Both the position numbers and the translations under genes were made by a program. DNA of 64,000 nt from a virus (Duplodnaviria > Heunggongvirae > Uroviricota > Caudoviricetes), in the IMG/VR virus record IMGVR_UViG_3300042890_004094. The stretch is one strand, 5' to 3'. Numbering within the stretch: the stretch's first letter is position 1; the number at the start of each line of letters is the position of its first letter. Under the pieces are notes generated by a model. That model was not told where the DNA came from and did not search any database. It saw only the letters and a program-made list of their open reading frames with translations. Positions 3,206 through 52,791 of this stretch are shown here, in pieces.

Positions 3206-3211
3206 TGTTTG

Positions 3212-3284: not shown

Positions 3285-3294
3285 ATTATATTTG

Positions 3295-3367: not shown

Positions 3368-3376
3368 ATATATTTG

Positions 3377-3469: not shown

Positions 3470-3471
3470 TG

Positions 3472-3544: not shown

Positions 3545-3549
3545 ATTAG

Positions 3550-9234: not shown

Positions 9235-9638
9235 TATGCCAATACTTCTTTAATAACTTCTGATACAACTTTTCTGTCTACTTGTAAAGTAGCAAACTCT
9301 TTCATAATTCCACCAACATTGGTAATCCCTGATGCAACAAGTGCACTAACTTTTACAACAACATCTTCTCTTGTCATAGCAGCTGGAAGTAAAGCTTCAA
9401 CCATTTCTAATTGAGTTTTAGATTCTTCGTCACCAGAAGTTGCGATAACTTCTTTAAGAGATTTTGCAGTTTTATTAAGAATTTTAATTACCTCTGCATC
9501 AGAAAGACAATCTACTCCTGTATTTTTTTCAATAGTTTGGATCTCTCCTTTCACTACAGAAAGTAAGTTCTTTGCTACGACATTTCTTTCTTTGAAAGCA
9601 GTCATGTAGTCTTTGCTAATTTGTTCTTTTAAATTCAT
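9234..9638 (-). CDS. YqeY/GatB-domain protein
   Basis: 134 aa, MNLKEQISKDYMTAFKERN... resembles the YqeY family; stop overlaps the tyrS start as TAATG. Confidence 0.65.
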   Translation of the reverse strand: MNLKEQISKDYMTAFKERNVVAKNLLSVVKGEIQTIEKNTGVDCLSDAEVIKILNKTAKSLKEVIATSGDEESKTQLEMVEALLPAAMTREDVVVKVSALVASGITNVGGIMKEFATLQVDRKVVSEVIKEVLA

Positions 9639-9875
9639 AATATTTATTTTTAATAATTTCTAAAAAAAATACCTTTTTCATCTATTTTCTATATTTAATA
9701 TCAAGGTAGTTCACTGTTTTTCATAAAAGGTATTAGAAAATTCATTTACCAGCTACTTACTACCATAAACACTAACTATAACTATGTGACCAAAACTTAT
9801 TCTATAACAGGTCAGTTGTAGTAGCTCATTATTTATTGTGCAAATATACAATAAAGTTTCAATTTAAAAAATATA

Positions 9876-9894
9876 TTTTAATATATAGTTTATG
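9876..9894 (+). promoter_or_regulatory. Conserved promoter-like motif TTTTAATATATAGTTTATG fused to the start codon
   Basis: The 13-mer TATATAGTTTATG, including the ATG, is identical at 9882-9894, 28096-28108, 46307-46319 and, on the minus strand, at 11908-11920. Confidence 0.5.
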
Positions 9895-11565: not shown

Positions 11566-11910
11566 TAGATATAAATCATGTTGTCTCGCTTCTAACTCTG
11601 TTAAAAGATGAACACACTCTCTTCTTAGATCCTTTAACTTTAAAAAGTCTTCCGTATTATTAGTTTTATTTAATCGTGAATTAAGATTATCAATTTCAAC
11701 CGTTATTAAATCTTTCATTAAACTCATTTCCTTACTAACCTCTTCTTTTAAATCAAGTGCTAATGATTTAAAATACGGATTCGCCATGATAACACTTTTA
11801 TAATTATTAGAACTAAAGTTCTTCATAAGTCTTTTGAGTGTATCAATAGCTTGTTCCTCAGTAGTTGATAGATGTAGCTTATCGAGATATTCTAACAAGG
11901 TCAATTTCAT
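11557..11910 (-). CDS. Hypothetical protein (117 aa)
   Basis: ORF preceded by the conserved motif. Confidence 0.5.
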   Translation of the reverse strand: MKLTLLEYLDKLHLSTTEEQAIDTLKRLMKNFSSNNYKSVIMANPYFKSLALDLKEEVSKEMSLMKDLITVEIDNLNSRLNKTNNTEDFLKLKDLRRECVHLLTELEARQHDLYLLS

Positions 11911-11921
11911 AAACTATATAT
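11908..11921 (-). promoter_or_regulatory. Conserved motif (minus-strand ATATATAGTTTATG) fused to the start codon; contains the TAG stop of smpB
   Basis: Reverse complement of cataaactatatat. Confidence 0.45.
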
Positions 11922-12345
11922 TTCGTTGCATCTCTCTAGTAAGGTCTCTTTCTTTGATAGTTTCACGTTTATCCCAAGTTTTCTTACCTTTGGCAACAGC
12001 TATTTTAATTTTAATTCTATTATTCTTAATAAACATACCAAGTGGAATTGCAGTTATGCCTTTATCTTCCAGTTTTCTTTTGATACGAGTGATTTCTTTT
12101 TTATTTAAAAGAAGTTTCTTATCACGATTTTCTTCGTGTTTATCTAAAGTATGTGCTGATTTATAAGCTGCAACTTTTAGATTTTTAATCCACACTTCAT
12201 TATCTTTTATGTAAATGAACGCATCAACCATGGTAACATTTCCCATTCTAACGGACTTTACTTCACTACCAACCAATATTATTCCGCAGTCAAATTCCTC
12301 TATAAAAGTATATTCGTAACGGGCTCTTCTATTTAATGCTATCAT
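11914..12345 (-). CDS. smpB: SsrA-binding protein SmpB
   Basis: 143 aa; ALNRRARYEY...GSEVKS...IAVAKGKK..DKR..IKERD pattern aligns with bacterial SmpB. Confidence 0.85.
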   Translation of the reverse strand: MIALNRRARYEYTFIEEFDCGIILVGSEVKSVRMGNVTMVDAFIYIKDNEVWIKNLKVAAYKSAHTLDKHEENRDKKLLLNKKEITRIKRKLEDKGITAIPLGMFIKNNRIKIKIAVAKGKKTWDKRETIKERDLTREMQRNI

Positions 12346-12895
12346 ATTTTATAATTTTATCGGAATCTCCTTTCCTGTTCTTAATGACTTGTATTACTTT
12401 ATCATTACTTTGTTGAGTTATAATCATTGCTAAATCTGCATAATATAAAGGTGTTGAACCACCCATAAAAGAATCATTATCTTTATTTAAACCATTGGTG
12501 TTTAATGGACAGGTAAGTATCAACTTAATGTCACATATATCTTTCCCATTTCTACTATCTCTTAGACAAGATCTTACATCATAGATAACATTTTTTATTA
12601 CACTTGCTCTACTTAAATCCTCGTTAGTAAAATTTCTTTGTTCAATATAAGTATTTCTTATATCATTTATATCTAATAGTAAGTATTCAAACTCTTCTTT
12701 CTCATTTAGAACTTGGTCAATTTTCATATCTCTGATAATTGACTTCATAGAAAAAGATGAACTTAAATCTATTGTCTTGGTTCTCCCAAGATTAGAAATA
12801 ATTTCATCTTTAATTCTTTCATCTGAAAATCGATAACCAATTAAGGTTGTCTCATTTTTACTAATTAGATTATATAAATAATCTATATTTTCCAT
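12329..12895 (-). CDS. Hypothetical protein (188 aa)
   Basis: ORF; overlaps smpB start by 17 nt. Confidence 0.5.
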   Translation of the reverse strand: MENIDYLYNLISKNETTLIGYRFSDERIKDEIISNLGRTKTIDLSSSFSMKSIIRDMKIDQVLNEKEEFEYLLLDINDIRNTYIEQRNFTNEDLSRASVIKNVIYDVRSCLRDSRNGKDICDIKLILTCPLNTNGLNKDNDSFMGGSTPLYYADLAMIITQQSNDKVIQVIKNRKGDSDKIIKYDSIK

Positions 12896-13215
12896 TAGTT
12901 TAAGTATTGCCCAACAAGTTCAGACAATTTTTCTTTAGTTGTCATACCAACACTTCTATCTACAATTTCTCCGTCTTTATAAACCAAGATTGTAGGAATG
13001 TTTCTGATTCCCAACTCTACAACCTTATCTCCATTCGGAGTTGCGTCTAATTTACCAACTGCTACTCTTCCTTGAAAATCAATTGAAAATTCATCTAAAA
13101 TAGGAGCAATTTGTTTGCAGGGGCCGCACCAATTTGCCCAAATGTCAACTAAAACAACTCCAGTTTGTGTAAATTCAGTATAATTAGTTTCTGATAATTC
13201 TGTTATAAATCCCAT
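12895..13215 (-). CDS. trxA: Thioredoxin
   Basis: 106 aa with WCGPCK active site. Confidence 0.85.
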   Translation of the reverse strand: MGFITELSETNYTEFTQTGVVLVDIWANWCGPCKQIAPILDEFSIDFQGRVAVGKLDATPNGDKVVELGIRNIPTILVYKDGEIVDRSVGMTTKEKLSELVGQYLN

Positions 13216-13260: not shown

Positions 13261-14520
13261 TTAATCCGTACAATCTACATAACATGCATCACTATCATCA
13301 TATTCTACCTTAGATAGTATACTTTCGACCATAGAATTATGTCTTTCATCAACTATTTCTTTTCTTACAGAAAGTTCATAAAGAAGTGCAGTTGAATCAT
13401 CAATCTCTTGATTTGGTTCAATCGTATGTTTTTCCAATACTGAAAAAGCAATTGTAGGATCTTCCTTATATCTTTCTAATAGTGATTTAACTATTGAAAC
13501 TTGTTCAGTTAGTTTATAACCTCTTAGATTAAGAATTGTCCTTGGTAAAAACTTTATAGTATTTGATAATAATTTCATATCTTCTACATCAACTCCACCA
13601 TCAACATAATCTTCATTTATGAATAATGGTCTCAGTTGATTCCATATGTTCACTAATTCTGGCTTAGTATAGATATTTCTTACATAAAATAGAAAATCTT
13701 CACCTTTGTGAATACTTAATAAATTATTATCATATGTACCTGACCAAGTTTTCTCACTTTTTGTTTTTAAAGTCCATAGATTTACGTCTTTGTCATATGT
13801 TGTTTTGACGTGTGTCATACAGTCAGTATCTTGTTCTATTGTAAAATAGTCGCTAAGTAATTTATAATTATTGAATAAATTAAAATATCTATCTTGAAAT
13901 CTAACTTTGTAAACATCCTGAAGCTGACGTACTAAAACTCCTTGAATAATCTCTAATTCAAATAAATCCAACTTAACATCTAGTTCTTCAGCTTTCTTTA
14001 CAATTCTAATTGCTGTATGACAAGGTGTTTTCAAATTACTTATTTTTAAGTCTCCAGTTTTTAAGAACTTCTCAAACTCCGGTGTCCAATAAAATTTATC
14101 TTCTTCAATTGAATAACCAACCGCAGTACAGTTTATATCAAATGATTTTATGATAATCTCTGGATTGTGAGTGTTTGACTTGTAACTAACGTAGTTGAAT
14201 ATACCTTCGGTAGTAGATTCACTAATGGAATAATAGTTTTTTGCTCTATCAATAAATCTTAAACCAGAGTAATCATCATACCAAACATTTTCTTCATCTT
14301 CTTTAAATGAAAAAAAGTATTCCTTTTTATCTTCGTTATAACTATCTAGTAGACCATCAAATAAAAAAACATCAATATCATTTATGATTGCTTTTGTACC
14401 TGAAACTTCTTCCCAAATAAGGTTTGAAATAGAACCACCCGCGATAAACCCTTTTTTAGGTAAACCCCAATTTGATTTTATTTTCTCAATCGCATTCTTT
14501 GCCAACTGTTCTACGTTCAT
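13261..14520 (-). CDS. Protein with polymerase-beta-superfamily nucleotidyltransferase motif (function unknown)
   Basis: 419 aa; GFIAGGSISNLIWEEVSGTKAIINDIDVFLF matches the GS-x(n)-DxD nucleotidyltransferase signature. Confidence 0.5.
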   Translation of the reverse strand: MNVEQLAKNAIEKIKSNWGLPKKGFIAGGSISNLIWEEVSGTKAIINDIDVFLFDGLLDSYNEDKKEYFFSFKEDEENVWYDDYSGLRFIDRAKNYYSISESTTEGIFNYVSYKSNTHNPEIIIKSFDINCTAVGYSIEEDKFYWTPEFEKFLKTGDLKISNLKTPCHTAIRIVKKAEELDVKLDLFELEIIQGVLVRQLQDVYKVRFQDRYFNLFNNYKLLSDYFTIEQDTDCMTHVKTTYDKDVNLWTLKTKSEKTWSGTYDNNLLSIHKGEDFLFYVRNIYTKPELVNIWNQLRPLFINEDYVDGGVDVEDMKLLSNTIKFLPRTILNLRGYKLTEQVSIVKSLLERYKEDPTIAFSVLEKHTIEPNQEIDDSTALLYELSVRKEIVDERHNSMVESILSKVEYDDSDACYVDCTD

Positions 14521-14678
14521 TACTTTTCTTTTTTAGTGTTTAAATTTAAAACTTCTGATATGTGATCATTTAATGATCTTCTAACAGAAGAATCAGAAGA
14601 AGTCTGACTTTCATCTTTAACTTCTTCTGATTCTTCTGTTGTTTTTATTTCTTTGTCTTTCATTTCTTTGTATTTCAT
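14520..14678 (-). CDS. Small acidic Ser-rich protein (52 aa) translationally coupled between the sigma factor and the nucleotidyltransferase-like gene; not in the ORF track (below size cutoff)
   Basis: MKYKEMKDKEIKTTEESEEVKDESQTSSDSSVRRSLNDHISEVLNLNTKKEK; TAATG overlaps at both ends. Confidence 0.4.
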   Translation of the reverse strand: MKYKEMKDKEIKTTEESEEVKDESQTSSDSSVRRSLNDHISEVLNLNTKKEK

Positions 14679-15280
14679 TAGTCTAAAAACATTTCATCTA
14701 TCTGTTCAAACTCTTTTTTGGATTGATCCATAAGTATTTGACGTCCATTCCTTATTTGACTTTTAATTGTACTCAAGTTTTTTCCTAATTTATCTGCGAT
14801 GTCTTTGTATTGCATTCTTTCTATCTCTCTCATTATAATAACTGTTTTATACGGCTCTTTTAACTCGTCGATATGTTTCTTCATTACATCAGCTTTCTGT
14901 GTAAAAACATCATAAATGGCCTCATTACTTTCAGTTTCTTGTAAGAAATCTTTTAAGGTAGTACCTTCATCATCAAACTCAATGTCTAACGATATGTTTC
15001 TGTTTTCAAGTTTCTTGTCTTGAAGTGATAAATTTTTTGCAATTGTGAATAACCACGTTGAGAATTGTGATTTTTCTTTTTGATACATTTCTATTTTTTC
15101 CAGAGCTATCATAAATGAGTCTGTCGAAATGTCTTCTGCTTTTTGTACATCATTACAAATTCTTGATGTAAAGTAGATTAGTTTTGGATAATACTTTTGA
15201 TAAAGTGTTGCGAAGTCTTTACCTGTTCTTTCTTTAAAGATTTTCTCTTGTTCAGAGAAGGGAGCTGTGCTTAATTCCAT
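14678..15280 (-). CDS. Sigma-70 family RNA polymerase sigma factor (regions 2 and 4 only, ECF-like size)
   Basis: 200 aa; region 2 ...FSTWLFTIAKNL..., region 4 HTH ...YKDIADKLGKNLSTIKSQIRNGRQIL. Confidence 0.8.
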   Translation of the reverse strand: MELSTAPFSEQEKIFKERTGKDFATLYQKYYPKLIYFTSRICNDVQKAEDISTDSFMIALEKIEMYQKEKSQFSTWLFTIAKNLSLQDKKLENRNISLDIEFDDEGTTLKDFLQETESNEAIYDVFTQKADVMKKHIDELKEPYKTVIIMREIERMQYKDIADKLGKNLSTIKSQIRNGRQILMDQSKKEFEQIDEMFLD

Positions 15281-15517: not shown

Positions 15518-16111
15518 TTATTTTGTTTTACGTTTTTTTCTTAATTGTAACTTTGCCAACTTAAAAGCTTCTTTTAATTCATCACTAGCTTGATTAGTTA
15601 CATACTTTCTTTGAGTGTAATCGTAGTATCTATGAGAACTACAATCTCTAAAATTGTGAATAGTTAAAATTGCTTTCATCCACTCTAAATCAGTAGATAG
15701 ATTTAAAAAGTAAGCTTTATAATCAATAATATATTTTTTGAAATTATCAATCTCAAATTTTACATTGTTTAATCCACGTAAAGTATTTACTCTTTTTCTA
15801 TCATCTTTCTCTAATGTAGGATACATATTGATAATTGTCAATATTGCATTATCCATTGGGTCTAGCTGATCCAGTAAAGACTTTAGTTGAAGATCTCTTT
15901 CATTACTAACTTTAGTTTGATCTACTCTTGCTTTATAATCAACAAGTGTGCCAGACTCACTAACTTCAAAAATTTGATAAGTCATTCTTGCAGCATAACT
16001 GTTTTCAAAATCTTGTCTTGAAATTATTCTTTTTATGTTATTCAAAAAGGTTTTTTCTGATCTATAAACAGAATCACCTAATACGAATATTTTATTTCTC
16101 TTCTTTGCCAT
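15518..16111 (-). CDS. Hypothetical protein (197 aa)
   Basis: ORF; start overlaps the ligA stop region. Confidence 0.55.
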   Translation of the reverse strand: MAKKRNKIFVLGDSVYRSEKTFLNNIKRIISRQDFENSYAARMTYQIFEVSESGTLVDYKARVDQTKVSNERDLQLKSLLDQLDPMDNAILTIINMYPTLEKDDRKRVNTLRGLNNVKFEIDNFKKYIIDYKAYFLNLSTDLEWMKAILTIHNFRDCSSHRYYDYTQRKYVTNQASDELKEAFKLAKLQLRKKRKTK

Positions 16112-17958
16112 TATTTTAATAAGTTTTCTAATTCTTCTACTGTTAAGATTACTACTCCAAGTGAAACTGCTTTTGTTTCTTTACTTGAACCTGAACCTTT
16201 AGCTTTCATTACCAAGTATGTTGTCGTTTTAGATACAGAACCTGCAACTTTACCACCACGTGATTCAATTACTTCTTCTAAATCTTTTCTACGAACTCCT
16301 GTGAATACAAATGATTTACCATCTAAATCTGTACCAACTTTTACTGACTCTACTTTTTTAGCAATCGTTATAGGAAGATTTCCTACAAAGGTAAAGAAAT
16401 TATCGTAATTATCCACAAAAACTTTTGCAGAAATTTCAGCAAAACCTTCAATCTCCATAACTTGGTCAACTGTAGGTTTAGTTATAAAGTGTTCTAATAA
16501 AGCTAACTTCTTACTACCTAGACCTCTAAACAAACCTGTAGCGTGTTGAAGTTTAGATAATTGAACATCTGTAACAGATTTTTGAATTGAGCTATAAACA
16601 ATCTGAGCTTTTCTTTTACCAAATCTGTCAATACTCTCTAATTGAGTAGTAGTAACATTTAAAATATCTTCGATAGTTTTATAACCAGCATCCCATAATT
16701 GAGTGATAATACCTTCTGACACATTGTCTGCTTCTAAGATTTCAAAGAAAGCAACATTTTGTTTCAACTTTTGGTCGTCAGTTTCAGTTAAAGTAACTAA
16801 CTCAATACCATTTTCATTCCATGTATAGTCAATTTCGCCATTTGAATCTGTAAGATATGGATATTGAAATTCAACAGTTTCTAATACTTCAACAATCAAT
16901 GGAATAACCATACCACTTCTTTTAACTACAACTTTCGCACCAATTCCTAAACCCATATCTTTTACGAATTTAGCATTATTACCAGTTACGTTAGAAACAG
17001 TAACACCGTCTAATTTAATTGGAGTAATATGTAAAACAGGTTTTAAGAGTCCATGTTTAGAGATATTCCAAGAAATACCTAATACTGTCGCTTCTGCTTT
17101 TTGTTCAAAACTATCGTGCTTAAATGCTCTTGCGTAACAAGGATTGTTAGAAGATGTTTCTCTTCCTAAACTTTCTTGTAGATTAAGATCATTTACTTCA
17201 AGAATTATACCATCGATTTCATAGTCGGTAGACCATCTTTTAAATAATTCTACTAAAAGGTCTTCGGTAATATCTTTTGCAATGAATAAATGATAGTTTA
17301 CTTTAACTTCCTGACCAGAGTTTAACATATCTAATATGTCTGACTTGGTTTTAAAGTTAAATCCTTCATTTGGTATTGCACCATATTTAATAAATTGTAA
17401 GTCTTTTAGTGGATCTGTTACTTCTTTTGAGTTAAGTAAACCAGCAACTAAGTTTCTTGGATTTGCAAACTCTGTTGAGTATTTATCTAAGAAAACTTGT
17501 TTAGGCATTATAACCTCACCATAAGTATATGTGAATACATCACTTTTTAAAGATAAGTGATTTTGTATTAGTTTGTAGTGTTCGTCTGACTTCTGGCCAA
17601 ATTCACCATCACCTCTAGTCCAGGTGTTTGTATTGATTTCGTCATGACATAAAGAAAGTCCGTCATATTTTGGAGTACATACGATTTCAGTATTTGGATT
17701 GATACCTTTTAATCTTAACCATGTGCGTATGTCTTCAATGGTTTTAATTTTATTCATAGAAGCCATATCAATAGGTAGTTTTGATTTTCTTGTTTCGTCA
17801 AGAACTTCAATACCTACTTTAGAAAATATTTCATTTTCTGGGTCATATGAATATAACAATTCAAGTAATGAATCATACTCTTTATCAGACATAATTTCAT
17901 TACCAGTTCTATAAGCAACATTTGCTTCTTCTAATTTTGCTACTATTTTATCTATCAT
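16111..17958 (-). CDS. ligA: NAD-dependent DNA ligase (no Cys4 zinc finger evident)
   Basis: 615 aa; KYDG adenylation motif, ANPRNLVAG, EIDGIILEVN, C-terminal BRCT (KSFVFTGVRRKDLEEVIESRGGKVAGSVSKTT). Confidence 0.9.
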   Translation of the reverse strand: MIDKIVAKLEEANVAYRTGNEIMSDKEYDSLLELLYSYDPENEIFSKVGIEVLDETRKSKLPIDMASMNKIKTIEDIRTWLRLKGINPNTEIVCTPKYDGLSLCHDEINTNTWTRGDGEFGQKSDEHYKLIQNHLSLKSDVFTYTYGEVIMPKQVFLDKYSTEFANPRNLVAGLLNSKEVTDPLKDLQFIKYGAIPNEGFNFKTKSDILDMLNSGQEVKVNYHLFIAKDITEDLLVELFKRWSTDYEIDGIILEVNDLNLQESLGRETSSNNPCYARAFKHDSFEQKAEATVLGISWNISKHGLLKPVLHITPIKLDGVTVSNVTGNNAKFVKDMGLGIGAKVVVKRSGMVIPLIVEVLETVEFQYPYLTDSNGEIDYTWNENGIELVTLTETDDQKLKQNVAFFEILEADNVSEGIITQLWDAGYKTIEDILNVTTTQLESIDRFGKRKAQIVYSSIQKSVTDVQLSKLQHATGLFRGLGSKKLALLEHFITKPTVDQVMEIEGFAEISAKVFVDNYDNFFTFVGNLPITIAKKVESVKVGTDLDGKSFVFTGVRRKDLEEVIESRGGKVAGSVSKTTTYLVMKAKGSGSSKETKAVSLGVVILTVEELENLLK

Positions 17959-33720: not shown

Positions 33721-33721
33721 A

Positions 33722-46298: not shown

Positions 46299-46319
46299 AA
46301 ATTTAATATATAGTTTATG
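46299..46319 (+). promoter_or_regulatory. Conserved motif AAATTTAATATATAGTTTATG fused to the start codon
   Basis: Identical 13-mer TATATAGTTTATG. Confidence 0.5.
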
Positions 46320-49300
46320 CCATTTATAGATACAAACTTAATACAGTCTTGGACTACATCAAATATACAATCACAGGTTGGTATTAACAGAAATGATTAC
46401 CAGGGTTTGTTCTATATTGATAATAGAACAAACGATAGTTTTCCTTATCCAACTGGATATACTTACACACAAGGTAAAAATTATCAAATAGTTACAACTG
46501 TGTTAAGTTCAAATTCAACAATTGGTGCGGAATTGTCTATTAAATTTGCCGCACCTTTTAAGAGTACAGTCGCTGCAACTACACCAGATGTGAATACTAC
46601 ATCATCTGGTGTAGAATTTTATACTTATGCAACACCTTTATCTACATTAAAATCAAAATCAATAGTCAGATATGGTGCTACCGAAGCTTTTACACAGTCA
46701 ATAATTACAAAATCTGTATTAAATGAAATTGACTTTTTAATAAATGGATTTAGAGAATATAGTGATTTATCAATGGCAATAGATGATATTTCACAACCAA
46801 ATGGTTGGTATTTTAACGAAATTAGTGGCTCATATAGGTACCATTGGCTTAATAATGGAGGTAGTTCTGCACCAGCATATTCAACATTTGGATCCGGATT
46901 AGATACTATAGTTAATCAAAATTTTATAGCAAAACCAATTGAATATGATGTTTTTGGGTTAGAGTTAAATTATAATTTTATAAACCGTACAGATCCAAGT
47001 GATGGTATGAATATTTATATAGTAAGAAGTGATTTATTAAAAGACCCAACAAGTTGGGGTCCTTCTATAGCAAATCTAACCGCAGCAAATACAGTATTTG
47101 CAACTAACAGTTTGCCAGGAATAAGTTCAAATGGTTCTAGAAACTATTTAGTTATTTCTGCATTAAGTGTTGGAACCTATTCTGCTTATTTAGATAATAT
47201 TTATATCTACGGTGCTTATCATAAAGATAACAATAGATTACAATTACCAACTGATAGTATATCATATTCAAATCCAACTTTATTGAATATTTCTATGATT
47301 TCTGCTACTTATTCACATGTACTACTACAAAATGGAACTCCTTATACACTAACATCTAGAATTGGTAATGGTTTATTTAGGTCAGGTATTTGGGAGAATG
47401 GTGTTTGGAATAGTGGTTGGAGGGATGATGAAGAAGCAAGAGACTTTGATGATGTTGCATTTTCAGTTTTAACTGAGTCTGATATTTCATGGAAAATTGA
47501 AATTAGGGGATCTACATACTCAATTGCAAATTTTGCAACTGGATCTGCAGTATCTATTGGTAATATTGTTGCAATAGATATAAATGATAATAGAAAACTT
47601 CTGGGAGACTATTATAAAATTGAAGACTTGGGTATTGGTTATAACTATTCACCAAGTGGTTCAACACAATCCACATATGGTTGGATTAGAGTAAATTTGA
47701 ATACTACTTTCCCTTATAGAAGAATTGAGAAGGATTCACAAAATCATAAGATAAAAGTAACTAAGAATATTTGGTTATCTGGTGGCTTCTTTAATGGTTA
47801 TTTCTCTGGTGTTTGGAACAATGGATTATTCAAAGGATATCCACTTATAACAGAGATGTTTAATACACACTGGATTGATGGATTCTTTAATGGAGGTCAT
47901 TTCAATTCTATCTATTCAGAGACTTATGAATTCACTAATTTGAATCCTCGTGAGGCGTGTACAAACGGTTATATAAATCTTACATTTGAGACACAACATA
48001 CATCATTTTTACCTGGAGATTATATCATGATTACCTTTGGAAGTGCAGTTCTTAATAGTGCTGGATATGGAGGAGTTGCACAAATTATCGCAATTGAACA
48101 TGTGGTTGATTCATCCGGTTCATTTAGAGATATTATTACAATTGATAAAATATTTACTGGTGATAGTATTATTACCGCAGCCGGTACTAATCTAGGTGTA
48201 ACTGTATTGGGATCGGTAGTAAGATATACTGGAACAGGTTTAATACAGAATTTTAAATTTTATGATAATAATAGATCTAAAATAAAATCTATTGATAATA
48301 TATTATCTACTGCAGTATTTAGTTTTAATTCCTGGATTGATGTAAATTACGATGAAACTAGAGCAGTAACTTTAGGTAGAGATTTTAGAATGTATGAACC
48401 ACTTACTAAAAAATCTATAAATAGAAATAATTTATATGGTTATCCAACATATGATGTTCTATCATCTTTATCACGTTTTAGAGATAGTAATACATTAGAT
48501 TATAAATTATATAAATTAGGTACTAAATATAAATTATTTACTGATTTTATTGGAAGTGCATCAGGTTTTAATGAGCCATTTAATGAGTTAGATTTTAGTA
48601 GCTTTACAAATGCAGGTTGGACTTCATCATATAATAATATAAATAACTTTTCTTTAAAAAGAACAGAAAATATAATATCATTAAACAATCAACTATCTAC
48701 TGATTTTTTAAATTCCGGTGTAACTGGTGATGAGTTACATGTATTGGCAAGTAATACTGGATTTATATTAAATAATAATAATATAAATATTTCAAAATCT
48801 AGGTATTCAGTTGTAGAGTTTGATGTAATAACACATAGTAGTGTAACTACTTTTAATTATAAAAATCCAGATATTTACATAATTAAAAGTATCAATAGTA
48901 TTGGTCTGACATTTAGCGAAACAATATTTGCAGGTGATGGTTCTACATCAAATAATAGTATAACAAGTGTTTATAATATAACTGGTCCAGTCACTATAAA
49001 TACCAATGATAGACCAATTGATGATATTTTGGTTATGGTTGATATTTATGGAGATGTTTCTGCAACAACAATTAATTTAGTTGCACCTAATGGTAAAATA
49101 ATAAATATTAAAAGAAATGGAAGTGGTTTAGGTACAAGATTATCAAATACTAAGTTTAGTTTAAGAGACGTATATACTAAATTTTCATCAATTACAACAC
49201 CATATAGTTTAAATAATACAACTACTTCTTATGCTGATACATATTTAATGGATAAAGAACTTGGACAAGGTGATGTGAATTCAACTCCCTCTCCACAATT

Positions 49301-50960
49301 TTTATCAGATAGTAATAAATTATCTGACCTTATTACTTTACCATACGGTGATTGGATCTTATACATTAAGTATAATCCAAATTCTGTAATTCCGTTTGAT
49401 TTAGTAAATTGGTCAATAGAAATTCAATATAGAGAGACTGTTAGTGTAGATACTGAACCAATTTCAACATTGCCGGTATTAAATTTATCTAACCTTAACT
49501 ATGATATTACTACACAATTATCAGGTTATGATAATGTACAGATTTATAAACAAATGAATTATCTACCAATACGACAAAATGTCAATCATTTAAAAGTGAG
49601 TAATACATTTAGATTAGACTCAATTGAGGACTCTAGACCTAGTAGATGGGGTGGTTTTGGGAAAAATCAACCAACTAAAAAGTATGAATATTTCTATAAT
49701 AAAACTGATATGATGTTAAATATCAATGGTAATGGTGTAACTGGAGCAAGTACATCAATGTTAGTATTGGATAATCTTAATATGTATGAAGTAGATATGA
49801 TTCCATTCTTTAAATACTTTGATGAGGTGAATATTTACAAAGGAATACAAATTCCTTATATCGGTGAAGCACCTAATATTGATTATTTAAACTCAGATTT
49901 TGTATTTGTTGATAATATTACAGTTGGTGTTGATGCAATTGATGCAAATGGTAATAATACTTTTTCTACAAATTGTGACCCTGTTATTGTAGTTGCTGCA
50001 ACACCGGTAGCTAGTACAACACCAATATTTAGAGTATATACAAATCCTGGTCAACCAACAAATCAAAATCCTTTTAATATAACACAAAATAATACTAATG
50101 CGATTCAACTATCTGCATATATATATGCAAATGGTATAAGTGATATTCCTTCATCAATTAGTTGGGCGATAATAACTGGCCCGGGTGCTAGTTTGAATAC
50201 TAGTTCTTCTCTAACGCCTATTATATCAGGATTAGTATCTGGTACTTATGTATTACGTGTTAGAGCAGTATCTGCTACTTATAGTAATGTGAATGGAGTA
50301 ATTGACTCTATATCCTGGGAAGCATTTATTAATATTGGTATTAGTGTACCTGTTGTACCAGGACCTGTTATAAATACCGGTAATCAAAATAAATTTAAAG
50401 GTATTACTTATAGTGTGGATGATATTAATTTACAAGCCTTTGCAAAAAGTTTTACATCTCCTGAGATAATAGGTGCATATAGTACTAGTGTGCCAGGTGG
50501 TGCAAGTACTATAAAAATTCTATCATTGCCATCAGTTGGAAAATTAGTTTTTGCTGGTGCCTCAGAATATGATAATTTATCAGTAAATAGTGTTGTTTTT
50601 GTATCTGATATAACTGATACTAGAATGGCTTATTCGGCGTGGGGTAATCCTCCAACTAATGATGGTATATCATTGGCATCAACTACACCAGAAGGTCAGT
50701 TCTATAGTACATCGTTTAAATATGTGATTATTGATACTGCAGGTAATCAATCTCTAGATATTACTATGACACTAACATGTACTAAAGGTGTTGTTTCTGT
50801 AACAACAATTGGTGGAAATACTGGGACAGGACCTTCACCAGGACAAGGACAAGAACAAGAAACTCCAGATCCTGAGCAGCCTGATCAACAATATGAACCA
50901 GGTGAAGAACAAGGATCACAAGAAGGGCAAGAAGGACCAGAGAATGATGGTTGGTGTTAA
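46317..50960 (+). CDS. Giant repeat protein (1547 aa), fibre/adhesin-like, acidic Gln/Glu/Pro-rich C-terminal tail
   Basis: W-x-N-G-x-W/F repeats (IWENGVWNSGW, WLSGGFFNGYFSGVWNNGLFKGY, HWIDGFFNGGHFNS); a short region (about 49000-49260) loosely resembles a proprotein-convertase P-domain; tail GPSPGQGQEQETPDPEQPDQQYEPGEEQGSQEGQEGPENDGWC. Confidence 0.75.
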   Translation: MPFIDTNLIQSWTTSNIQSQVGINRNDYQGLFYIDNRTNDSFPYPTGYTYTQGKNYQIVTTVLSSNSTIGAELSIKFAAPFKSTVAATTPDVNTTSSGVEFYTYATPLSTLKSKSIVRYGATEAFTQSIITKSVLNEIDFLINGFREYSDLSMAIDDISQPNGWYFNEISGSYRYHWLNNGGSSAPAYSTFGSGLDTIVNQNFIAKPIEYDVFGLELNYNFINRTDPSDGMNIYIVRSDLLKDPTSWGPSIANLTAANTVFATNSLPGISSNGSRNYLVISALSVGTYSAYLDNIYIYGAYHKDNNRLQLPTDSISYSNPTLLNISMISATYSHVLLQNGTPYTLTSRIGNGLFRSGIWENGVWNSGWRDDEEARDFDDVAFSVLTESDISWKIEIRGSTYSIANFATGSAVSIGNIVAIDINDNRKLLGDYYKIEDLGIGYNYSPSGSTQSTYGWIRVNLNTTFPYRRIEKDSQNHKIKVTKNIWLSGGFFNGYFSGVWNNGLFKGYPLITEMFNTHWIDGFFNGGHFNSIYSETYEFTNLNPREACTNGYINLTFETQHTSFLPGDYIMITFGSAVLNSAGYGGVAQIIAIEHVVDSSGSFRDIITIDKIFTGDSIITAAGTNLGVTVLGSVVRYTGTGLIQNFKFYDNNRSKIKSIDNILSTAVFSFNSWIDVNYDETRAVTLGRDFRMYEPLTKKSINRNNLYGYPTYDVLSSLSRFRDSNTLDYKLYKLGTKYKLFTDFIGSASGFNEPFNELDFSSFTNAGWTSSYNNINNFSLKRTENIISLNNQLSTDFLNSGVTGDELHVLASNTGFILNNNNINISKSRYSVVEFDVITHSSVTTFNYKNPDIYIIKSINSIGLTFSETIFAGDGSTSNNSITSVYNITGPVTINTNDRPIDDILVMVDIYGDVSATTINLVAPNGKIINIKRNGSGLGTRLSNTKFSLRDVYTKFSSITTPYSLNNTTTSYADTYLMDKELGQGDVNSTPSPQFLSDSNKLSDLITLPYGDWILYIKYNPNSVIPFDLVNWSIEIQYRETVSVDTEPISTLPVLNLSNLNYDITTQLSGYDNVQIYKQMNYLPIRQNVNHLKVSNTFRLDSIEDSRPSRWGGFGKNQPTKKYEYFYNKTDMMLNINGNGVTGASTSMLVLDNLNMYEVDMIPFFKYFDEVNIYKGIQIPYIGEAPNIDYLNSDFVFVDNITVGVDAIDANGNNTFSTNCDPVIVVAATPVASTTPIFRVYTNPGQPTNQNPFNITQNNTNAIQLSAYIYANGISDIPSSISWAIITGPGASLNTSSSLTPIISGLVSGTYVLRVRAVSATYSNVNGVIDSISWEAFINIGISVPVVPGPVINTGNQNKFKGITYSVDDINLQAFAKSFTSPEIIGAYSTSVPGGASTIKILSLPSVGKLVFAGASEYDNLSVNSVVFVSDITDTRMAYSAWGNPPTNDGISLASTTPEGQFYSTSFKYVIIDTAGNQSLDITMTLTCTKGVVSVTTIGGNTGTGPSPGQGQEQETPDPEQPDQQYEPGEEQGSQEGQEGPENDGWC

Positions 50961-50973
50961 AATAAAATATATT

Positions 50974-51504
50974 ATGAATATAAAATATGGTAAAATAGAA
51001 ATAGATATAGATATAGAGGATTGGAATGTTCCGGATGTAGTATCATTTTTTAGTTGGAGAGATGACTTCTTTAAAATACCTAATTCTGAAAAGTTTGATG
51101 TTTATTTACTTGGTAGTTTTTTACATAAATTACTTGATAATGTTGGTACTCCTAATGATATTGATATTATTTTGACGGGAAATCATAATATAGAGGATAT
51201 TGAAAATGTAATTTACCAAGGTATAAAAATAGGTATAGAGAAGTATGGTATATTCTTTGATATTCATTGGAATGAGGAAATACGTTATAATCCATATACT
51301 GCTGAAGAAACTAAATATTATGAATTCTATTCACATGGTAATAAGTTTATGAAAGATGGTAAAATTATAACAAGTTATAAATCTACAGTAAAGGTATCTG
51401 ATAGTTTATATAAAATTACTATAGATGGAAAAGTAGGTAAAAAACACACGGCTAGAATGAAAAGTGGTTATATTTATAAAGAACCACTTTTAATTAACTA
51501 CTAA
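50974..51504 (+). CDS. Small nucleotidyltransferase-motif protein, paralogue 1 (start set at first ATG after upstream stop; track ORF 50809 is a TTG-extended version)
   Basis: MNIKYGKIEIDID...LGSFLHKLLDNVGTPNDIDIILTGNHNIEDIENVIYQGIKIGIEKYGI...SGYIYKEPLLINY. Confidence 0.6.
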   Translation: MNIKYGKIEIDIDIEDWNVPDVVSFFSWRDDFFKIPNSEKFDVYLLGSFLHKLLDNVGTPNDIDIILTGNHNIEDIENVIYQGIKIGIEKYGIFFDIHWNEEIRYNPYTAEETKYYEFYSHGNKFMKDGKIITSYKSTVKVSDSLYKITIDGKVGKKHTARMKSGYIYKEPLLINY

Positions 51505-51521
51505 AAAATATATACTATTAT

Positions 51522-52094
51522 ATGAATATAAAATATGGTAAAATAGATATAGATATAGATAATTTGTGTGCACCAGATGTAGTATCATTTTTTAGTTGGA
51601 GAGATGACTTCTTTAAAATACCTAATTCTGAAAAGTTTGATGTTTATCTACATGGTAGCTTTTTACATAAATTACTTGATAATGTTGGTAATCCTAATGA
51701 TATTGATATTATTTTGACGGGAAATCATAATATAGAGGACATTGAAAATGTAATTTACCAAGGTATAAAAATAGGTATAGAGAAGTATGGTATCTTAATT
51801 GATATTCGTTGGGATGATAAGATAAACTATCTTTCTCCCGGATTAGCAAGTATTTGCGGATTTGATACATCTAAATCACTTGAAAATTCCTCTAATTCTG
51901 TAAACAATTATGAATTTTATGTACATGGTGATAAGTTGATAATTGATGGTAAAAACTGGAGGGGATATAAATCTACAATAAAGTTAGCAGATAGTTTATA
52001 CAAAGTTACCTACCTTGGAGAAGTAAGTGAAAAACACACAGCTAAAGCGAAAAGTGGTTATATTTACAAAGAACCACTTTTAATTAACTATTAA
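51522..52094 (+). CDS. Small nucleotidyltransferase-motif protein, paralogue 2 (tandem duplicate)
   Basis: Near-identical N-terminal 110 aa and C-terminal SGYIYKEPLLINY to paralogue 1; upstream DNA also duplicated. Confidence 0.65.
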   Translation: MNIKYGKIDIDIDNLCAPDVVSFFSWRDDFFKIPNSEKFDVYLHGSFLHKLLDNVGNPNDIDIILTGNHNIEDIENVIYQGIKIGIEKYGILIDIRWDDKINYLSPGLASICGFDTSKSLENSSNSVNNYEFYVHGDKLIIDGKNWRGYKSTIKLADSLYKVTYLGEVSEKHTAKAKSGYIYKEPLLINY

Positions 52095-52791
52095 TAATTA
52101 GTAAATATCCTACTTTACCAGGTTCATTTTTAGAACAATGACCCATTGCATCAATCTTAGTTTCATCACCAGTTAGTTTTATCTTAGTAAGTTTTTGTTT
52201 TCCTAAAATACGTTTTTCTCCTTTACAAGTTGTACAAGGATTTAAACCTACTTTACCTTTACCAAAACAAAATGGACAATCTTGATCTCTATATTTTCCA
52301 GTTCCTTCACATAAATCACATCCATCCTCAGAATCAAATATCTTTAGAATATTACCATCATTATCTTTGATAACAATTTTAGAAGAAAGATCTTTACCAG
52401 TACCATCACAAGGTTTACAACGAACCCATCTTTCATATTCTAATGTACCATCAAAAGTATCATCAACTTTAATATAAATATTATAGACTTCATTCTTTTT
52501 AAACTTTTCATATTTATCTTTAGTATCATCATATGAGTAGTCAAAGTTTGTTTCAAAAAGTTCAAAGTATTCGTTATAACAATTACCAAACTTACTTTTC
52601 TTGTCGTAGTCTTCTCTTTCTTCACCACAAAGGATATCATATGCTTCAGTTATTTCACCGAAGATAATTGGATCACCACCTTTGTCTGGGTGGTTAGTAA
52701 AAGAAAGTTTATAGTAAGCTTTCTTAATTTCTTTTTCAGTTGATGTATTTAAAACTCCAAGTAGTGCATAATAATTTTTATTTAGATTCAT
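52084..52791 (-). CDS. DnaJ-like protein (J domain plus CxxCxGxG zinc-finger repeats)
   Basis: YYALLGV...KAYYKLSFTNHPDKGGD (HPD motif); CKPCDGTGK, CDLCEGTGK, CPFCFGKGK, CTTCKGEKR. Confidence 0.8.
   Translation of the reverse strand: MNLNKNYYALLGVLNTSTEKEIKKAYYKLSFTNHPDKGGDPIIFGEITEAYDILCGEEREDYDKKSKFGNCYNEYFELFETNFDYSYDDTKDKYEKFKKNEVYNIYIKVDDTFDGTLEYERWVRCKPCDGTGKDLSSKIVIKDNDGNILKIFDSEDGCDLCEGTGKYRDQDCPFCFGKGKVGLNPCTTCKGEKRILGKQKLTKIKLTGDETKIDAMGHCSKNEPGKVGYLLIINS

What the first reader, a model, noticed from the sequence alone, without database searches (positions are those of the whole stretch)
13261..14520. Three genes with the same GS-x(n)-NDID(V/I) nucleotidyltransferase signature, two as a tandem duplicate
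The 13261..14520 gene (GGSISNLIWEEVSGTKAIINDIDVF) and the tandem paralogues 50974..51504 and 51522..52094 (LGSFLHKLLDNVGTPNDIDII) share the polymerase-beta-superfamily GS...DxD core. The two small ones (177 and 190 aa) are about 65 percent identical and their upstream DNA is duplicated too. Most encoded tRNAs lack a 3' CCA, so one hypothesis is tRNA CCA-adding or repair activity. Minimal NTases are also toxin/antitoxin or CD-NTase-like signalling enzymes, which would point to a defence or anti-defence role.
Basis: partly seen in the sequence, partly recalled or inferred. Interest (0 to 1): 0.55.

Follow-up and report, generated by a model that had tools for sequence, protein, structure and literature searches.

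The report
Two unrelated nucleotidyltransferase families in a megaphage
A giant gut phage carries one 419-residue enzyme, distantly related in its catalytic half to the phage anti-Gabija protein Gad2 and not a tRNA CCA-adding enzyme, and a separate pair of small enzyme-like proteins that in several phages sit behind giant or tail-associated genes; none has a known substrate.

Summary
All three ORFs and the shared motif are real. A strict form of the motif occurs only in these three genes in the six-frame translation of the window. They belong to two unrelated families.

**Small pair (176 and 190 aa, 69% identical).** These are long-separated paralogues, not a recent duplication. The family is known only from metagenomes and has invariant D60 and D62 and near-invariant G45 and D94. 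It occurs in 1-3 tandem copies, in most phage lineages sampled among large or giant ORFs, in two of them next to recognisable tail or baseplate genes. No HEPN partner, CD-NTase or CitX relationship was found. Its nucleotidyltransferase fold is likely but not shown by structure.

The parts
13261..14520 (-). 419-aa nucleotidyltransferase gene, a Gad2-like / class-II-like family of Lak-like megaphages
   Evidence: ORF. 627 homologues, many on 400-656 kb contigs, with precomputed PF26128 and sometimes PF06042. AlphaFold model pLDDT 82.
13960..14520 (-). Residues 1-187: catalytic head and neck, the only part with detectable relatives
14368..14439 (-). Motif A: G28-G29-S30 ... N47-D48-I49-D50-V51 (hG[GS] plus DxD metal-binding carboxylates)
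   Evidence: G28, G29, D48 and D50 are invariant in 28 family members. They align with GG and DxD of Gad2 and of two CCA enzymes.
14131..14145 (-). S126-F-D128-I-N130: the counterpart of class-II motif B (RRDxTxNA), with both arginines lost
   Evidence: Invariant SFDIN. D128 aligns with the D of RRD in E. coli Cca and the LR745206 CCA enzyme, and with FDF of Gad2.
13993..14028 (-). Neck motif T165-P166-x-H168 ... R172 ... K175-K176, in the position of class-II motif D (EDxxR..LRxxRF)
   Evidence: Invariant in the family. P, R and K are shared with invariant P146, R152 and K155 of Gad2. The ED..R template residues are absent.
13261..13959 (-). Residues 188-419: mostly helical C-terminal domain with no detected relative
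   Evidence: Secondary structure. Not aligned to Gad2 (hhalign of the C-terminal halves E 0.27). No full-length match in BFVD. No PDB sequence match of note.
14520..14678 (-). 52-aa ORF whose stop overlaps the nucleotidyltransferase start codon (possibly translationally coupled)
   Evidence: ORFs of 63-68 aa occupy the same position with the same overlap in L001-L003, but sequence conservation is weak.
50974..51504 (+). Small nucleotidyltransferase-like paralogue, 176 aa ('type b'); motif GSFLHKLLDNVGTPNDIDI at 51112-51168
   Evidence: Its orthologue in L004 (8001-8531) is 96-97% identical at nucleotide level.
51522..52094 (+). Small nucleotidyltransferase-like paralogue, 190 aa ('type c', with a 16-residue insertion); motif at 51654-51710
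   Evidence: Its orthologue in L004 (8550-9122) is 98-99% identical at nucleotide level.
50959..52100 (+). Tandem repeat unit pair (50959-51510 and 51505-52100), 89% nucleotide identity over 542 columns
   Evidence: Local alignment. The N-terminal 100 codons are 93.5% identical and the C-terminal part 73%.
46317..50960 (+). 1547-aa giant ORF immediately upstream (13-nt spacer), last of three co-directional giant ORFs (38353-44088, 44148-46289, 46317-50960). This is the conserved neighbour of the small genes.
   Evidence: The same arrangement occurs in L004, L006, L018 and a 41-kb contig.

Best explanation
The finding combines two unrelated families of Pol-beta-superfamily nucleotidyltransferases in a Lak-like megaphage.

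**(A) 13261-14520, the 419-aa protein.**
- Shown: its first ~187 residues are a class-II-type head and neck, the fold of CCA-adding enzymes and poly(A) polymerases. The GG, DxD and FD residues are intact. The RRD and EDxxR elements of CCA/poly(A) enzymes are missing.
- Shown: its last ~230 residues are a helical domain with no detectable relatives.
- Shown: it is a remote relative, in the N-terminal module only, of Gad2, the phage nucleotidyltransferase needed to overcome Gabija. Pfam files its close homologues under PF26128 (Gad2).
- Shown: a related megaphage carrying a homologue of this gene also has a canonical CCA-adding enzyme at another locus, so this family does not stand in for that enzyme there.
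- Inferred: it is an active nucleotidyltransferase. It lies downstream of the phage sigma-factor gene on the same strand, with contiguous ORFs, so it may be co-transcribed with it. It would add nucleotides to a nucleic-acid 3' end or another target, and a counter-defence or host-takeover role is the leading guess.

**(B) 50974-51504 and 51522-52094, the small pair.**
- Shown: they are two long-separated paralogues of a small (160-190 aa) family known only from metagenomes. The conserved N-terminal half carries G45, D60, D62 and D94. The C-terminal half is variable.
- Shown: the family occurs in 1-3 tandem copies. In five of the seven lineages sampled it lies among large or giant ORFs, and in two of these next to recognisable tail or baseplate genes.
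- Inferred: they are minimal nucleotidyltransferases that act on or with those giant virion or tail-fibre-like proteins. They are not toxin-antitoxin or cyclic-nucleotide signalling enzymes.
For: **(A)**
- The model has pLDDT 82.
- PF06042 matches at E 2.7e-5.
- G28, G29, D48, D50, D128, P166, R172 and K175 are invariant in the family. They align with invariant Gad2 residues.
- Homologues of 47-93% identity carry precomputed PF26128, which is named Gad2. All bona fide Gad2 homologues carry it too.
- Against verified Gad2: BLASTP E 0.004; hhalign E 3.6e-4 full length and 5e-5 for the N-terminal halves.
- Gad2 biology comes from the bioRxiv paper 10.1101/2023.05.01.538930.
- LR745206 has a canonical CCA enzyme at about 516.2-517.4 kb (PF01743 E 9.8e-30, with GGSVRD, RRD and EDSLR motifs). 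Its homologue of the 419-aa protein lies at 330.6-331.8 kb.
- The order sigma factor, small ORF, nucleotidyltransferase, thioredoxin, unknown gene, SmpB is conserved in relatives of 47-52% identity.

**(B)**
- 111 cluster representatives match at E<=1e-3.
- D60 and D62 are invariant, and G45 and D94 at least 90% conserved, across 64 sequences of 18-36% identity.
- Distant members give weak hits to NTP_transf_2, DUF6932, the Pol-beta palm, AbiEii and PDC-M63A. The best PDB profile hit is an MNT, at the motif.
- The predicted N-terminal secondary structure is alpha-beta-alpha-beta-alpha-beta.
- Copy number at the same locus is 1, 2 or 3.
- W1/L4b and W2/L4c are orthologous pairs at 96-99% nucleotide identity. 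The paralogues differ mainly in the C-terminal half.
- A distant phage also has a tandem pair, 48% identical.
- Contexts behind ORFs of at least 2332, 3109 and 1547 aa, and inside gp25/gp6 baseplate and tail-spike modules, are.
Against: **(A)**
- Similarity to experimentally verified Gad2 is weak. hhalign probability is 37-67%. A HMM I built from Firmicutes Gad2 scores the megaphage proteins at only 2-9 bits.
- The similarity stops at residue ~187, so the target-specifying part may be entirely different.
- The PF26128 model is not in the Pfam copy available here. The window protein itself could not be scored, and the region matched is unknown.
- Gad2's own mechanism is unknown, so 'works like Gad2' specifies little.
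- The neighbours (SmpB, TyrRS, YqeY, tRNA array) are translation genes, which fits an RNA-directed role as well as a counter-defence one.
- Whether the host carries Gabija was not tested.

**(B)**
- No curated family is matched by the window proteins above noise.
- Two of the seven contexts sampled do not fit the giant-ORF pattern: a replication module and a bacterial chromosome.
- The giant ORFs of the window have no recognisable structural annotation.
Confidence: 0.45

Rival explanations
1. The 419-aa protein is the phage's tRNA CCA-adding or 3'-end repair enzyme, serving the phage tRNAs that lack an encoded CCA.
For: The best structural matches are class-II CCA-adding enzymes. The length, about 400 aa with a helical C-terminal part, resembles them. 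Twelve of 13 tRNA genes lack CCA. It lies on the same strand as SmpB, YqeY and TyrRS, about 10 kb from the tRNA array.
Confidence: 0.1
2. The 419-aa protein is a non-templated RNA 3'-tailing enzyme (poly(A)/TENT-like, or one acting on tmRNA, tRNA or mRNA). It would be part of the phage's translation-takeover gene set, not a counter-defence protein.
Against: No recognised RNA-binding domain was found. The nearest functionally studied sequence relative, Gad2, is linked to a DNA-targeting defence system. The context is only guilt by association in a genome rich in translation genes.
Confidence: 0.2
3. The small proteins are defence-type minimal nucleotidyltransferases: MNT-like antitoxins or toxins, AbiEii-like, or signalling enzymes used for defence or anti-defence.
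For: The best PDB profile hit is an MNT (E 0.15). There are weak PADLOC hits to PDC-M05A and PDC-M63A, and one to AbiEii. Tandem, copy-number-variable paralogues with variable C-terminal halves are compatible with an arms race.
Against: There is no HEPN or other partner gene. The neighbours are a giant ORF, a paralogue and a convergent DnaJ-like gene. All defence-library hits are weak and scattered (at most 5 of 64 members). Most contexts are structural or giant-ORF modules. At 160-190 aa they are much shorter than CD-NTases (general knowledge).
Confidence: 0.12
4. The small proteins are not enzymes. The GS..DIDI string sits in a non-catalytic protein, for example a fibre-assembly chaperone encoded behind its client.
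For: Position directly downstream of large or tail genes, often with overlapping stop and start, is where such chaperones would be expected (general knowledge). The structure model gave no nucleotidyltransferase match. No curated nucleotidyltransferase family is matched by the window proteins.
Against: D60 and D62 are invariant, and G45 and D94 near-invariant, at 18-36% overall identity. That is the pattern of a catalytic triad, with the spacing and predicted strand/helix order of the Pol-beta core. Independent weak hits all fall in nucleotidyltransferase families. No tail-assembly family such as Caudo_TAP appeared among the Pfam or PHROG hits.
Confidence: 0.18

Closest known systems
Gad2 (Gabija anti-defence 2; Pfam PF26128), phage SPbetaL7 and a Brevibacillus laterosporus prophage
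   Same: Phage-borne and about 400 aa. The N-terminal nucleotidyltransferase module has the same conserved residues (GG, NDxDV, FD, P..R..K). Close homologues of the window protein are annotated PF26128.
   Different: About 24-27% identity, confined to residues ~6-187. The C-terminal ~230 residues are unrelated by every test. The host phylum differs (Bacillota versus a likely Bacteroidota host). No functional test exists, and Gad2's own mechanism is unknown.
Class-II tRNA nucleotidyltransferases / poly(A) polymerases (PF01743; e.g. PDB 3h37, 1miv, 3wfo, 3aql)
   Different: No PF01743 match. RRD is replaced by SFD, and EDxxR is absent. Body and tail are not matched. A canonical enzyme of this family is encoded separately in a related megaphage.
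PF06042 (NTP_transf_6, formerly DUF925; PDB 2la3, 'CCA-adding enzyme head domain')
   Different: PF06042 proteins are single-domain, about 190 aa, and of unknown function (PMC2794190). The window protein scores 24.5 bits, just under the 25-bit cut-off, and has an extra 230-residue domain.
Minimal nucleotidyltransferases (MNT / PF01909 NTP_transf_2, DUF6932, AbiEii), compared with the small pair
   Same: hG[GS]-x(9-13)-DhDh motif and a third Asp on the next predicted strand. Weak profile hits for some family members.
   Different: No hit for the window proteins themselves above noise. No HEPN partner. There is an extra conserved N-terminal 30 residues (G6, P18, W26) and a variable, beta-rich C-terminal half. 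The genomic setting is behind giant or tail genes.
CitX / MdcG holo-ACP synthases (small nucleotidyltransferase-fold enzymes that attach a prosthetic group to a protein)
   Same: Similar size of about 180 aa. One distant relative of the small family is preceded by a CitG-like gene (PF01874). The idea of a small nucleotidyltransferase modifying a neighbouring protein is comparable.
   Different: hhalign of the family against E. coli CitX gives E 0.028 over 9 columns, with the motif at a different position. No CitX or MdcG Pfam hits in 64 members. No CitG-like gene lies next to the small genes in the window.

Membership tests
Pol-beta-superfamily nucleotidyltransferase fold (419-aa protein) | hG[GS] motif, DxD on the next strand, and a further conserved carboxylate | tested here: met
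   G28, G29, D48, D50 and D128 are invariant in 28 sequences.
Pol-beta-superfamily nucleotidyltransferase fold (419-aa protein) | Three-dimensional fold of the catalytic domain | tested here: met
Class-II CCA-adding enzyme / poly(A) polymerase (PF01743) | Match to the PolyA_pol head-domain profile | tested here: not met
   No PF01743 hit at E<=1. The control, the LR745206 CCA enzyme, scores E 9.8e-30.
Class-II CCA-adding enzyme / poly(A) polymerase (PF01743) | Motif A: GGxVRD ... DxD | tested here: met
   GGSISN ... DID aligns with GGSVRD ... DFD and GGAVRD ... DRD. VRD is not conserved.
Class-II CCA-adding enzyme / poly(A) polymerase (PF01743) | Motif B: RRD (ribose recognition) | tested here: not met
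   KSFDINCTA versus KRRDITYNA and KRRDLTINA. Only the Asp is retained.
Class-II CCA-adding enzyme / poly(A) polymerase (PF01743) | Motif D: EDxxR amino-acid template for CTP/ATP selection | tested here: not met
   NLKTPCHTAIRI versus DEDSLRILRAFRF. Only the later Arg (R172) is retained.
Class-II CCA-adding enzyme / poly(A) polymerase (PF01743) | Body and tail domains that hold the tRNA | tested here: inconclusive
Class-II CCA-adding enzyme / poly(A) polymerase (PF01743) | CCA-adding activity on tRNA | not testable with these tools
   Needs an in vitro assay or complementation.
Gad2 (PF26128) | Match to the Pfam PF26128 profile | tested here: inconclusive
   Homologues of 47-93% identity carry precomputed PF26128.2. 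It is unmarked (E<=1e-5) for P0092 and 'weak' for P0067. The model is not in the local Pfam copy, so the window protein itself and the region matched could not be scored.
Gad2 (PF26128) | Homology to experimentally verified Gad2 over the whole length | tested here: not met
   Only residues ~6-187 align (hhalign E 3.6e-4 and 5e-5). The C-terminal halves give E 0.27. BLASTP E 0.004. A Firmicutes-Gad2 HMM gives 2-9 bits.
Gad2 (PF26128) | Neutralises Gabija defence | not testable with these tools
   Known only for SPbetaL7 Gad2 and the Brevibacillus homologue.
PF06042 (NTP_transf_6) | Profile match above the gathering score | tested here: inconclusive
   24.5 bits against a cut-off of 25, over residues 24-66 only. 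Several homologues have precomputed PF06042.18.
CD-NTase / OAS / cGAS-like signalling enzymes | Structural or profile similarity to CD-NTases | tested here: not met
MNT-HEPN toxin-antitoxin (small pair) | Minimal nucleotidyltransferase profile (PF01909) match | tested here: inconclusive
   None for the window proteins. Three of 64 relatives match, best E 4.7e-5. PDB MNT E 0.15.
MNT-HEPN toxin-antitoxin (small pair) | Adjacent HEPN partner gene | tested here: not met
   The neighbours are the 1547-aa ORF, the paralogue and a convergent DnaJ-like gene. The same holds in L004, L006 and L018.
Pol-beta-superfamily nucleotidyltransferase fold (small pair) | Conserved G[GS], DxD and a third carboxylate, with alpha-beta-alpha-beta-alpha-beta order | tested here: met
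   D60 and D62 invariant, G45 and D94 at least 90% conserved in 64 sequences. Predicted element order H20-30, E41-42 (2-residue strand), H46-53, E62-65, H71-89, E94-96.
Pol-beta-superfamily nucleotidyltransferase fold (small pair) | Three-dimensional fold | tested here: inconclusive
CitX/MdcG holo-ACP synthase (small pair) | Profile similarity to CitX | tested here: not met
   hhalign E 0.028 over 9 columns. No Pfam CitX or MdcG hits.

The most novel reading that the evidence does not exclude
The small nucleotidyltransferase-like proteins are a previously unrecognised class of phage morphogenesis or host-range enzymes. Each paralogue, through its variable C-terminal half, would recognise a particular giant virion or tail-fibre protein encoded just upstream. 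It would then covalently modify that protein (for example by nucleotidylylation or phospho-ligand transfer), or be needed for its maturation. This would explain the tandem, copy-number-variable arrays behind giant ORFs in unrelated phages.
Probability: 0.12. Interest if true: 0.7.

Novelty: new variant of a known kind. Interest (0 to 1): 0.4.

Why it matters
Gad2 is a phage counter-defence protein predicted to be an enzyme, and its mechanism is still unknown. A large, deeply conserved megaphage clade keeps the Gad2-type catalytic module but replaces the rest of the protein. That separates the module likely to carry the chemistry from the part that may specify the target, and it supplies many natural variants for working out the reaction. 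It also corrects a tempting annotation. This gene resembles a CCA-adding enzyme in fold and sits among translation genes, but it is not the phage's CCA enzyme.

The small family is a separate lead. It is an unannotated, enzyme-like protein that recurs, sometimes in tandem copies, among large or giant ORFs and tail or baseplate genes of several phage lineages. If it modifies or matures those proteins, that would add a morphogenesis step not so far described, to my knowledge.

Tried and rejected
- **PHROGs, NCBIfam and PADLOC on the three proteins.** Nothing above noise. The Rex, phrog_28667, phrog_35631 and PDC-M05A hits are weak.
- **PDB sequence-profile searches.** For the 419-aa family only spurious oxidoreductase and aminotransferase hits appeared, plus 2la3 at E 0.24. 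For the small family, REH1, MNT and DnaQ all scored E>0.1.
- **afdb50 fold search.** The library was not available. BFVD gave only N-terminal matches with TM<0.3.
- **One superfamily-level relationship among the three genes.** Rejected.
- **CitX/MdcG idea for the small family.** Prompted by a CitG-like neighbour in one distant relative; rejected at profile level.
- **Recent duplication or gene conversion of the small pair.** Rejected. Each copy has its own orthologue at 96-99% nucleotide identity in another phage.
- **Stop-codon recoding as a confounder.** Rejected. All three genes end in TAA, and TAG terminates full-length TyrRS and SmpB in this window.
- **Annotation from the literature.** The Lak-phage supplementary tables held no hit for the nucleotidyltransferase, CCA-enzyme or SmpB search terms. 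The Nature version of the Gad2 paper is not held.
- **The search for related loci.** With the narrow one it gave only 3 loci.
- **PHROGs on the giant ORFs of the window.** No structural annotation.
Full report
**What the window is.** The sequence is AT-rich (29% G+C) and densely coding.
- It holds a tRNA array, TyrRS, YqeY, SmpB, thioredoxin, a sigma-70-type factor and an NAD-dependent ligase.
- It also holds several ORFs of 1000-1900 aa and a protein with a CHU_C/type-IX-secretion sorting domain.
- The 419-aa protein's only matches among 50,697 phage records are two uncultured phages of 634 and 642 kb (45% and 44% identity).
- Its metagenomic homologues lie on contigs of up to 656 kb.

The window therefore comes from a Lak-like megaphage, probably of a Bacteroidota host (inference from the CHU_C domain and the Lak literature, PMC8346664). 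TAG acts as an ordinary stop codon here.

**Check of the observation.** The three ORFs are as described.
- A strict form of the motif, G[GS]-x(8-25)-D[IVL]D[IVL], occurs only in these three genes in the six-frame translation. The loose GS...DxD form matches 17 times (overlapping matches counted) and carries no information.
- The two small proteins are 69% identical.
- The duplicated DNA is 50959-51510 versus 51505-52100 at 89% identity. It includes only about 15 nt before each start codon.
- Twelve of the 13 tRNA genes lack an encoded CCA.
- Beyond the motif, the large and small proteins are unrelated: no BLASTP similarity, and hhalign E 0.056 over 23 columns.

**The 419-aa protein: anatomy.** A 28-sequence alignment of homologues (47-91% identity) gives these invariant residues: G28, G29, D48, D50, D83, S126-F-D-I-N130, T165, P166, H168, R172, K175 and K176. 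Many C-terminal positions are also invariant.
- The AlphaFold model is confident (mean pLDDT 82, pTM 0.71).
- It shows an N-terminal alpha/beta domain (about 1-145), a helical neck (about 147-198), and a further mostly helical region up to residue 402.
- About 175 residues are aligned in each case.
- Foldseek against viral models again matches only about 200 N-terminal residues, to viral tRNA-nucleotidyltransferase or poly(A)-polymerase-like proteins and to small uncharacterised phage proteins. TM-scores are below 0.3 and there is no full-length match.
- Pfam gives PF06042 at E 2.7e-5, which is 24.5 bits against a cut-off of 25, over residues 24-66. There is no PF01743 match.

**Is it a CCA-adding enzyme?** I aligned the N-terminal 190 residues with E. 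coli Cca, a megaphage CCA enzyme and Gad2.
- Motif A (GG ... DxD) is kept.
- In motif B, RRD becomes SFD.
- The EDxxR nucleotide-selection template of motif D is replaced by KTPCH. Only the following Arg (R172) is retained.
- E. coli Cca used as a tblastn query finds 494 phage records. These include 15 Prevotella-phage records (among them Lak-A1 and Lak-B2) and LR745206 at 516,312-516,977.
- The ORF there (390 aa) reads LVGGSVRDF...DFDLAT...KRRDITYNA...DEDSLRILRAFRF and scores PF01743 at E 9.8e-30.
- The same genome carries its homologue of the 419-aa protein 185 kb away, at 330,642-331,841.
- The canonical enzyme is not in the 64-kb window. The rest of this phage's genome is not available.

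So a related megaphage with a homologue of this gene already has a standard CCA enzyme, and the 419-aa protein lacks the family's defining motifs. Membership is rejected. CCA-like activity is unlikely but not excluded.

**Relation to Gad2.** Nearly all of the 120 listed homologues carry the precomputed Pfam family PF26128. The context tool names this family 'Gad2'.
- Gad2 is the 400-aa protein of phage SPbetaL7 whose deletion makes the phage sensitive to Gabija.
- A Brevibacillus laterosporus prophage homologue of Gad2 abolishes Gabija defence.
- AlphaFold2 predicted a nucleotidyltransferase domain in Gad2, and the SPbetaL7 protein was toxic when expressed (bioRxiv 10.1101/2023.05.01.538930).
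- A 2026 review lists Gad2's mechanism as not yet elucidated (PMC12904381).
- A search with the verified Brevibacillus sequence returned 400 proteins, and all those listed are PF26128.

Direct comparison shows that the relationship is real but remote and partial.
- BLASTP gives E 0.004 and 24% identity.
- hhalign of the two family alignments gives E 3.6e-4 (probability 37%) over residues 6-187 versus Gad2 14-167.
- The N-terminal halves alone give E 5e-5 (67%). The C-terminal halves give nothing (E 0.27).
- A HMM built only from Firmicutes Gad2 scores the megaphage proteins at 2-9 bits. Pfam's model must therefore be broader than that clade.
- The residues invariant in both families coincide: GG, N-D-x-D-V, F-D, P, R and K.

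I therefore treat the protein as a variant that shares Gad2's catalytic head and neck but has a different C-terminal domain.

**Context of the 419-aa gene.** On the minus strand the order is:
- ligase (16111-17958) and an unknown ORF;
- sigma factor (14678-15280);
- a 52-aa ORF (14520-14678) whose stop overlaps the nucleotidyltransferase start codon;
- the nucleotidyltransferase, then thioredoxin (12895-13215);
- an unknown ORF, SmpB and another unknown ORF;
- an opposite-strand 557-aa ORF (9892-11565);
- YqeY, then TyrRS.

The core of this order is kept in relatives of 47-52% identity. A GIY-YIG endonuclease or a ClpP gene is inserted in some of them. The small upstream ORF is conserved in position but only weakly in sequence. 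This context fits a multi-gene transcription unit, but it does not separate an RNA-directed role from a counter-defence one.

**The small pair.** The narrow family (13 homologues, 52-99% identity) has no Pfam annotation.
- A profile search of 1.84 billion cluster representatives found 111 relatives at E<=1e-3. All those looked up were unnamed metagenomic proteins.
- Across 64 of them (18-36% identity to the window protein), D60 and D62 are invariant. M1, G6, P18, W26, G45, D94, L159 and K171 are at least 90% conserved.
- The spacing is hG[GS]-x(13)-DIDI, a helix, then D94 on the next strand. With the predicted order of helices and strands, this fits a minimal Pol-beta core.
- Only weak profile links exist:
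  - NTP_transf_2 in 3 members (best E 4.7e-5), DUF6932 in 2, and the Pol-beta palm in 1;
  - PDC-M63A in 5, PDC-M05A in 2, and AbiEii in 1;
  - an MNT as the best PDB hit, at E 0.15.

The fold is therefore likely (about 80% in my judgement) but not demonstrated.

**The small pair is not a recent duplicate.**
- The 176-aa copy has an orthologue in contig L004 at 96-97% nucleotide identity, and the 190-aa copy one at 98-99%.
- The two copies differ from each other by 6.5% in the first 100 codons and by 27% in the rest, with 33 non-synonymous changes in 76 codons.
- At the same locus, between the ~1550-aa ORF and a convergent DnaJ-like gene, related megaphages carry one copy (L006 and a 41-kb contig), two (the window; L018, with a different combination) or three (L004).
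- A distant relative in another phage is also tandemly duplicated. Its copies of 176 and 167 aa are 48% identical, with an almost identical N-terminus.

**Context of the small family.** Seven independent lineages were sampled. Five place the gene among large ORFs, co-directional and often with overlapping stop and start:
- behind the 1547-aa ORF in the megaphages;
- behind an ORF of at least 2332 aa in a marine contig;
- behind a 3109-aa ORF with Ig/fn3-like hits plus a CitG-like gene;
- inside a gp25/gp6 baseplate module, before a 1289-aa ORF;
- in a module that begins with a tail-spike-like protein and continues with ORFs of 869, 424, 560 and 1345 aa.

Two lineages do not fit. One lies between a RecA-like gene and a 5'-3' exonuclease in a replication module. 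The other is in a bacterial chromosome, after a glycosyltransferase. None of the contexts sampled has a HEPN partner directly adjacent to the gene (for the window; for relatives); the bacterial locus L009 does carry a separate NTP_transf_2/HepT pair about 4 kb downstream. The CitX/MdcG idea raised by the CitG-like neighbour failed the profile test. The giant ORFs of the window have no structural annotation in Pfam or PHROGs, apart from weak, sub-threshold Pfam hits to pentapeptide repeats and a PT-HINT domain. Calling them virion or fibre proteins is therefore an inference from size, position and the relatives.

**Mechanism, with steps marked.**
- *419-aa protein, shown:* class-II-type head and neck; the GG, DxD and FD residues conserved; loss of the CCA/poly(A) specificity motifs; remote homology to Gad2 in this module only; a canonical CCA enzyme encoded elsewhere in a relative.
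- *419-aa protein, inferred:*
  - It is catalytically active.
  - It transfers nucleotides to a 3'-OH of nucleic acid or to another acceptor chosen by its own C-terminal domain.
  - The purpose is counter-defence or host takeover.
  - Within the overall 0.45 given for the combined explanation, I put roughly 0.4 on counter-defence, 0.2 on RNA tailing in the translation programme, and 0.1 on CCA addition or repair. The remainder is unknown.
- *Small pair, shown:* conserved acidic triad and glycine; variable C-terminal half; copy-number variation; recurrent placement among giant or tail genes.
- *Small pair, inferred:* nucleotidyltransferase chemistry directed at, or cooperating with, the neighbouring giant proteins.

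**Novelty and score.** The nucleotidyltransferase nature of the large protein and its Pfam assignment are already recorded in public annotation. What is new here:
- only the catalytic module is shared with Gad2;
- the gene is not the phage's CCA enzyme;
- it is conserved across the homologue-bearing megaphage contigs sampled here, within a conserved gene order in the three relatives examined.

The small family is unannotated, and its association with giant or tail genes is, as far as I could find, undescribed. No function is established for either family, and the evidence is computational. I rate the finding a new variant of a known kind, with interest 0.4.

Noticed in passing
window 2039-3622 (-): Dense tRNA array with many duplicated isoacceptors (3 Lys-UUU, 2 Phe, 2 His, 2 Trp, 3 Ser). 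ARAGORN finds 13. Rfam finds one more at 2039-2122, and its list omits two of ARAGORN's (2131-2217, 3294-3367). Only one tRNA (His, 2889-2965) ends in an encoded CCA.
   Followed up: partly
window 7978-12345 (-) and 26938-28026 (+): Translation-related genes: TyrRS, YqeY, SmpB and an S1-domain protein. No tmRNA partner for SmpB was found in the window by ARAGORN or Rfam.
   Followed up: partly
whole window (47 long ORFs): Stop codon usage is TAA 38, TAG 8, TGA 1. TAG terminates full-length TyrRS and SmpB, so TAG is a genuine stop here, unlike the TAG-to-Gln recoding reported for Lak phages. TGA is almost unused.
   Followed up: partly
window 14520-14678 (-): A 52-aa Ser/Glu/Lys-rich ORF whose stop overlaps the ATG of the 419-aa nucleotidyltransferase. 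ORFs of 63-68 aa sit in the same overlapping position in three relatives, with weak sequence conservation. It could be a partner or regulator of the enzyme; SPbetaL7 Gad2 was reported toxic when expressed.
   Followed up: partly
window 4141-7422 (-): A 1093-aa protein with a C-terminal CHU_C / type IX secretion sorting domain. This is a Bacteroidota-specific signal and suggests the host phylum.
   Followed up: no
window 44148-46289 (+); L001 9605-10306; L004 9815-10891: Mobile-element footprints at both loci. The 713-aa ORF has a weak, sub-threshold PT-HINT hit (E 0.0015), and its counterpart in a relative hits Intein_splicing and AXH. A GIY-YIG/NUMOD endonuclease lies between the nucleotidyltransferase and thioredoxin in one relative. 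A LAGLIDADG-like ORF sits beside the DnaJ-like gene in another.
   Followed up: no
window 52084-52791 (-): A DnaJ-like protein (J domain plus CxxCxGxG zinc finger, 235 aa) converges on the second small gene and overlaps it by 11 nt. This junction is conserved in all related contigs examined.
   Followed up: no
L015/L016 6186-8041: In a distant phage, the small-family gene is also tandemly duplicated (176 and 167 aa, 48% identity). It is preceded by a 267-269-aa ORF that hits PF01874 (CitG, triphosphoribosyl-dephospho-CoA synthase), which in turn follows a 3109-aa ORF.
   Followed up: partly
window 30225-36453: A cluster with an M28 peptidase (30225-30971), a 631-aa SPFH/Band-7 protein (31050-32945) and an M16 (insulinase-like) peptidase (35344-36453). 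These are unusual phage cargo.
   Followed up: no
L008 2390-3562 (LR745206 516201-517373): The unannotated 634-kb phage record encodes a canonical class-II CCA-adding enzyme (390 aa, PF01743 E 9.8e-30). Neighbouring ORFs begin with similar N-terminal peptides (MI(I/L)KKY..FLES), suggesting a local paralogous N-terminal module.
   Followed up: no
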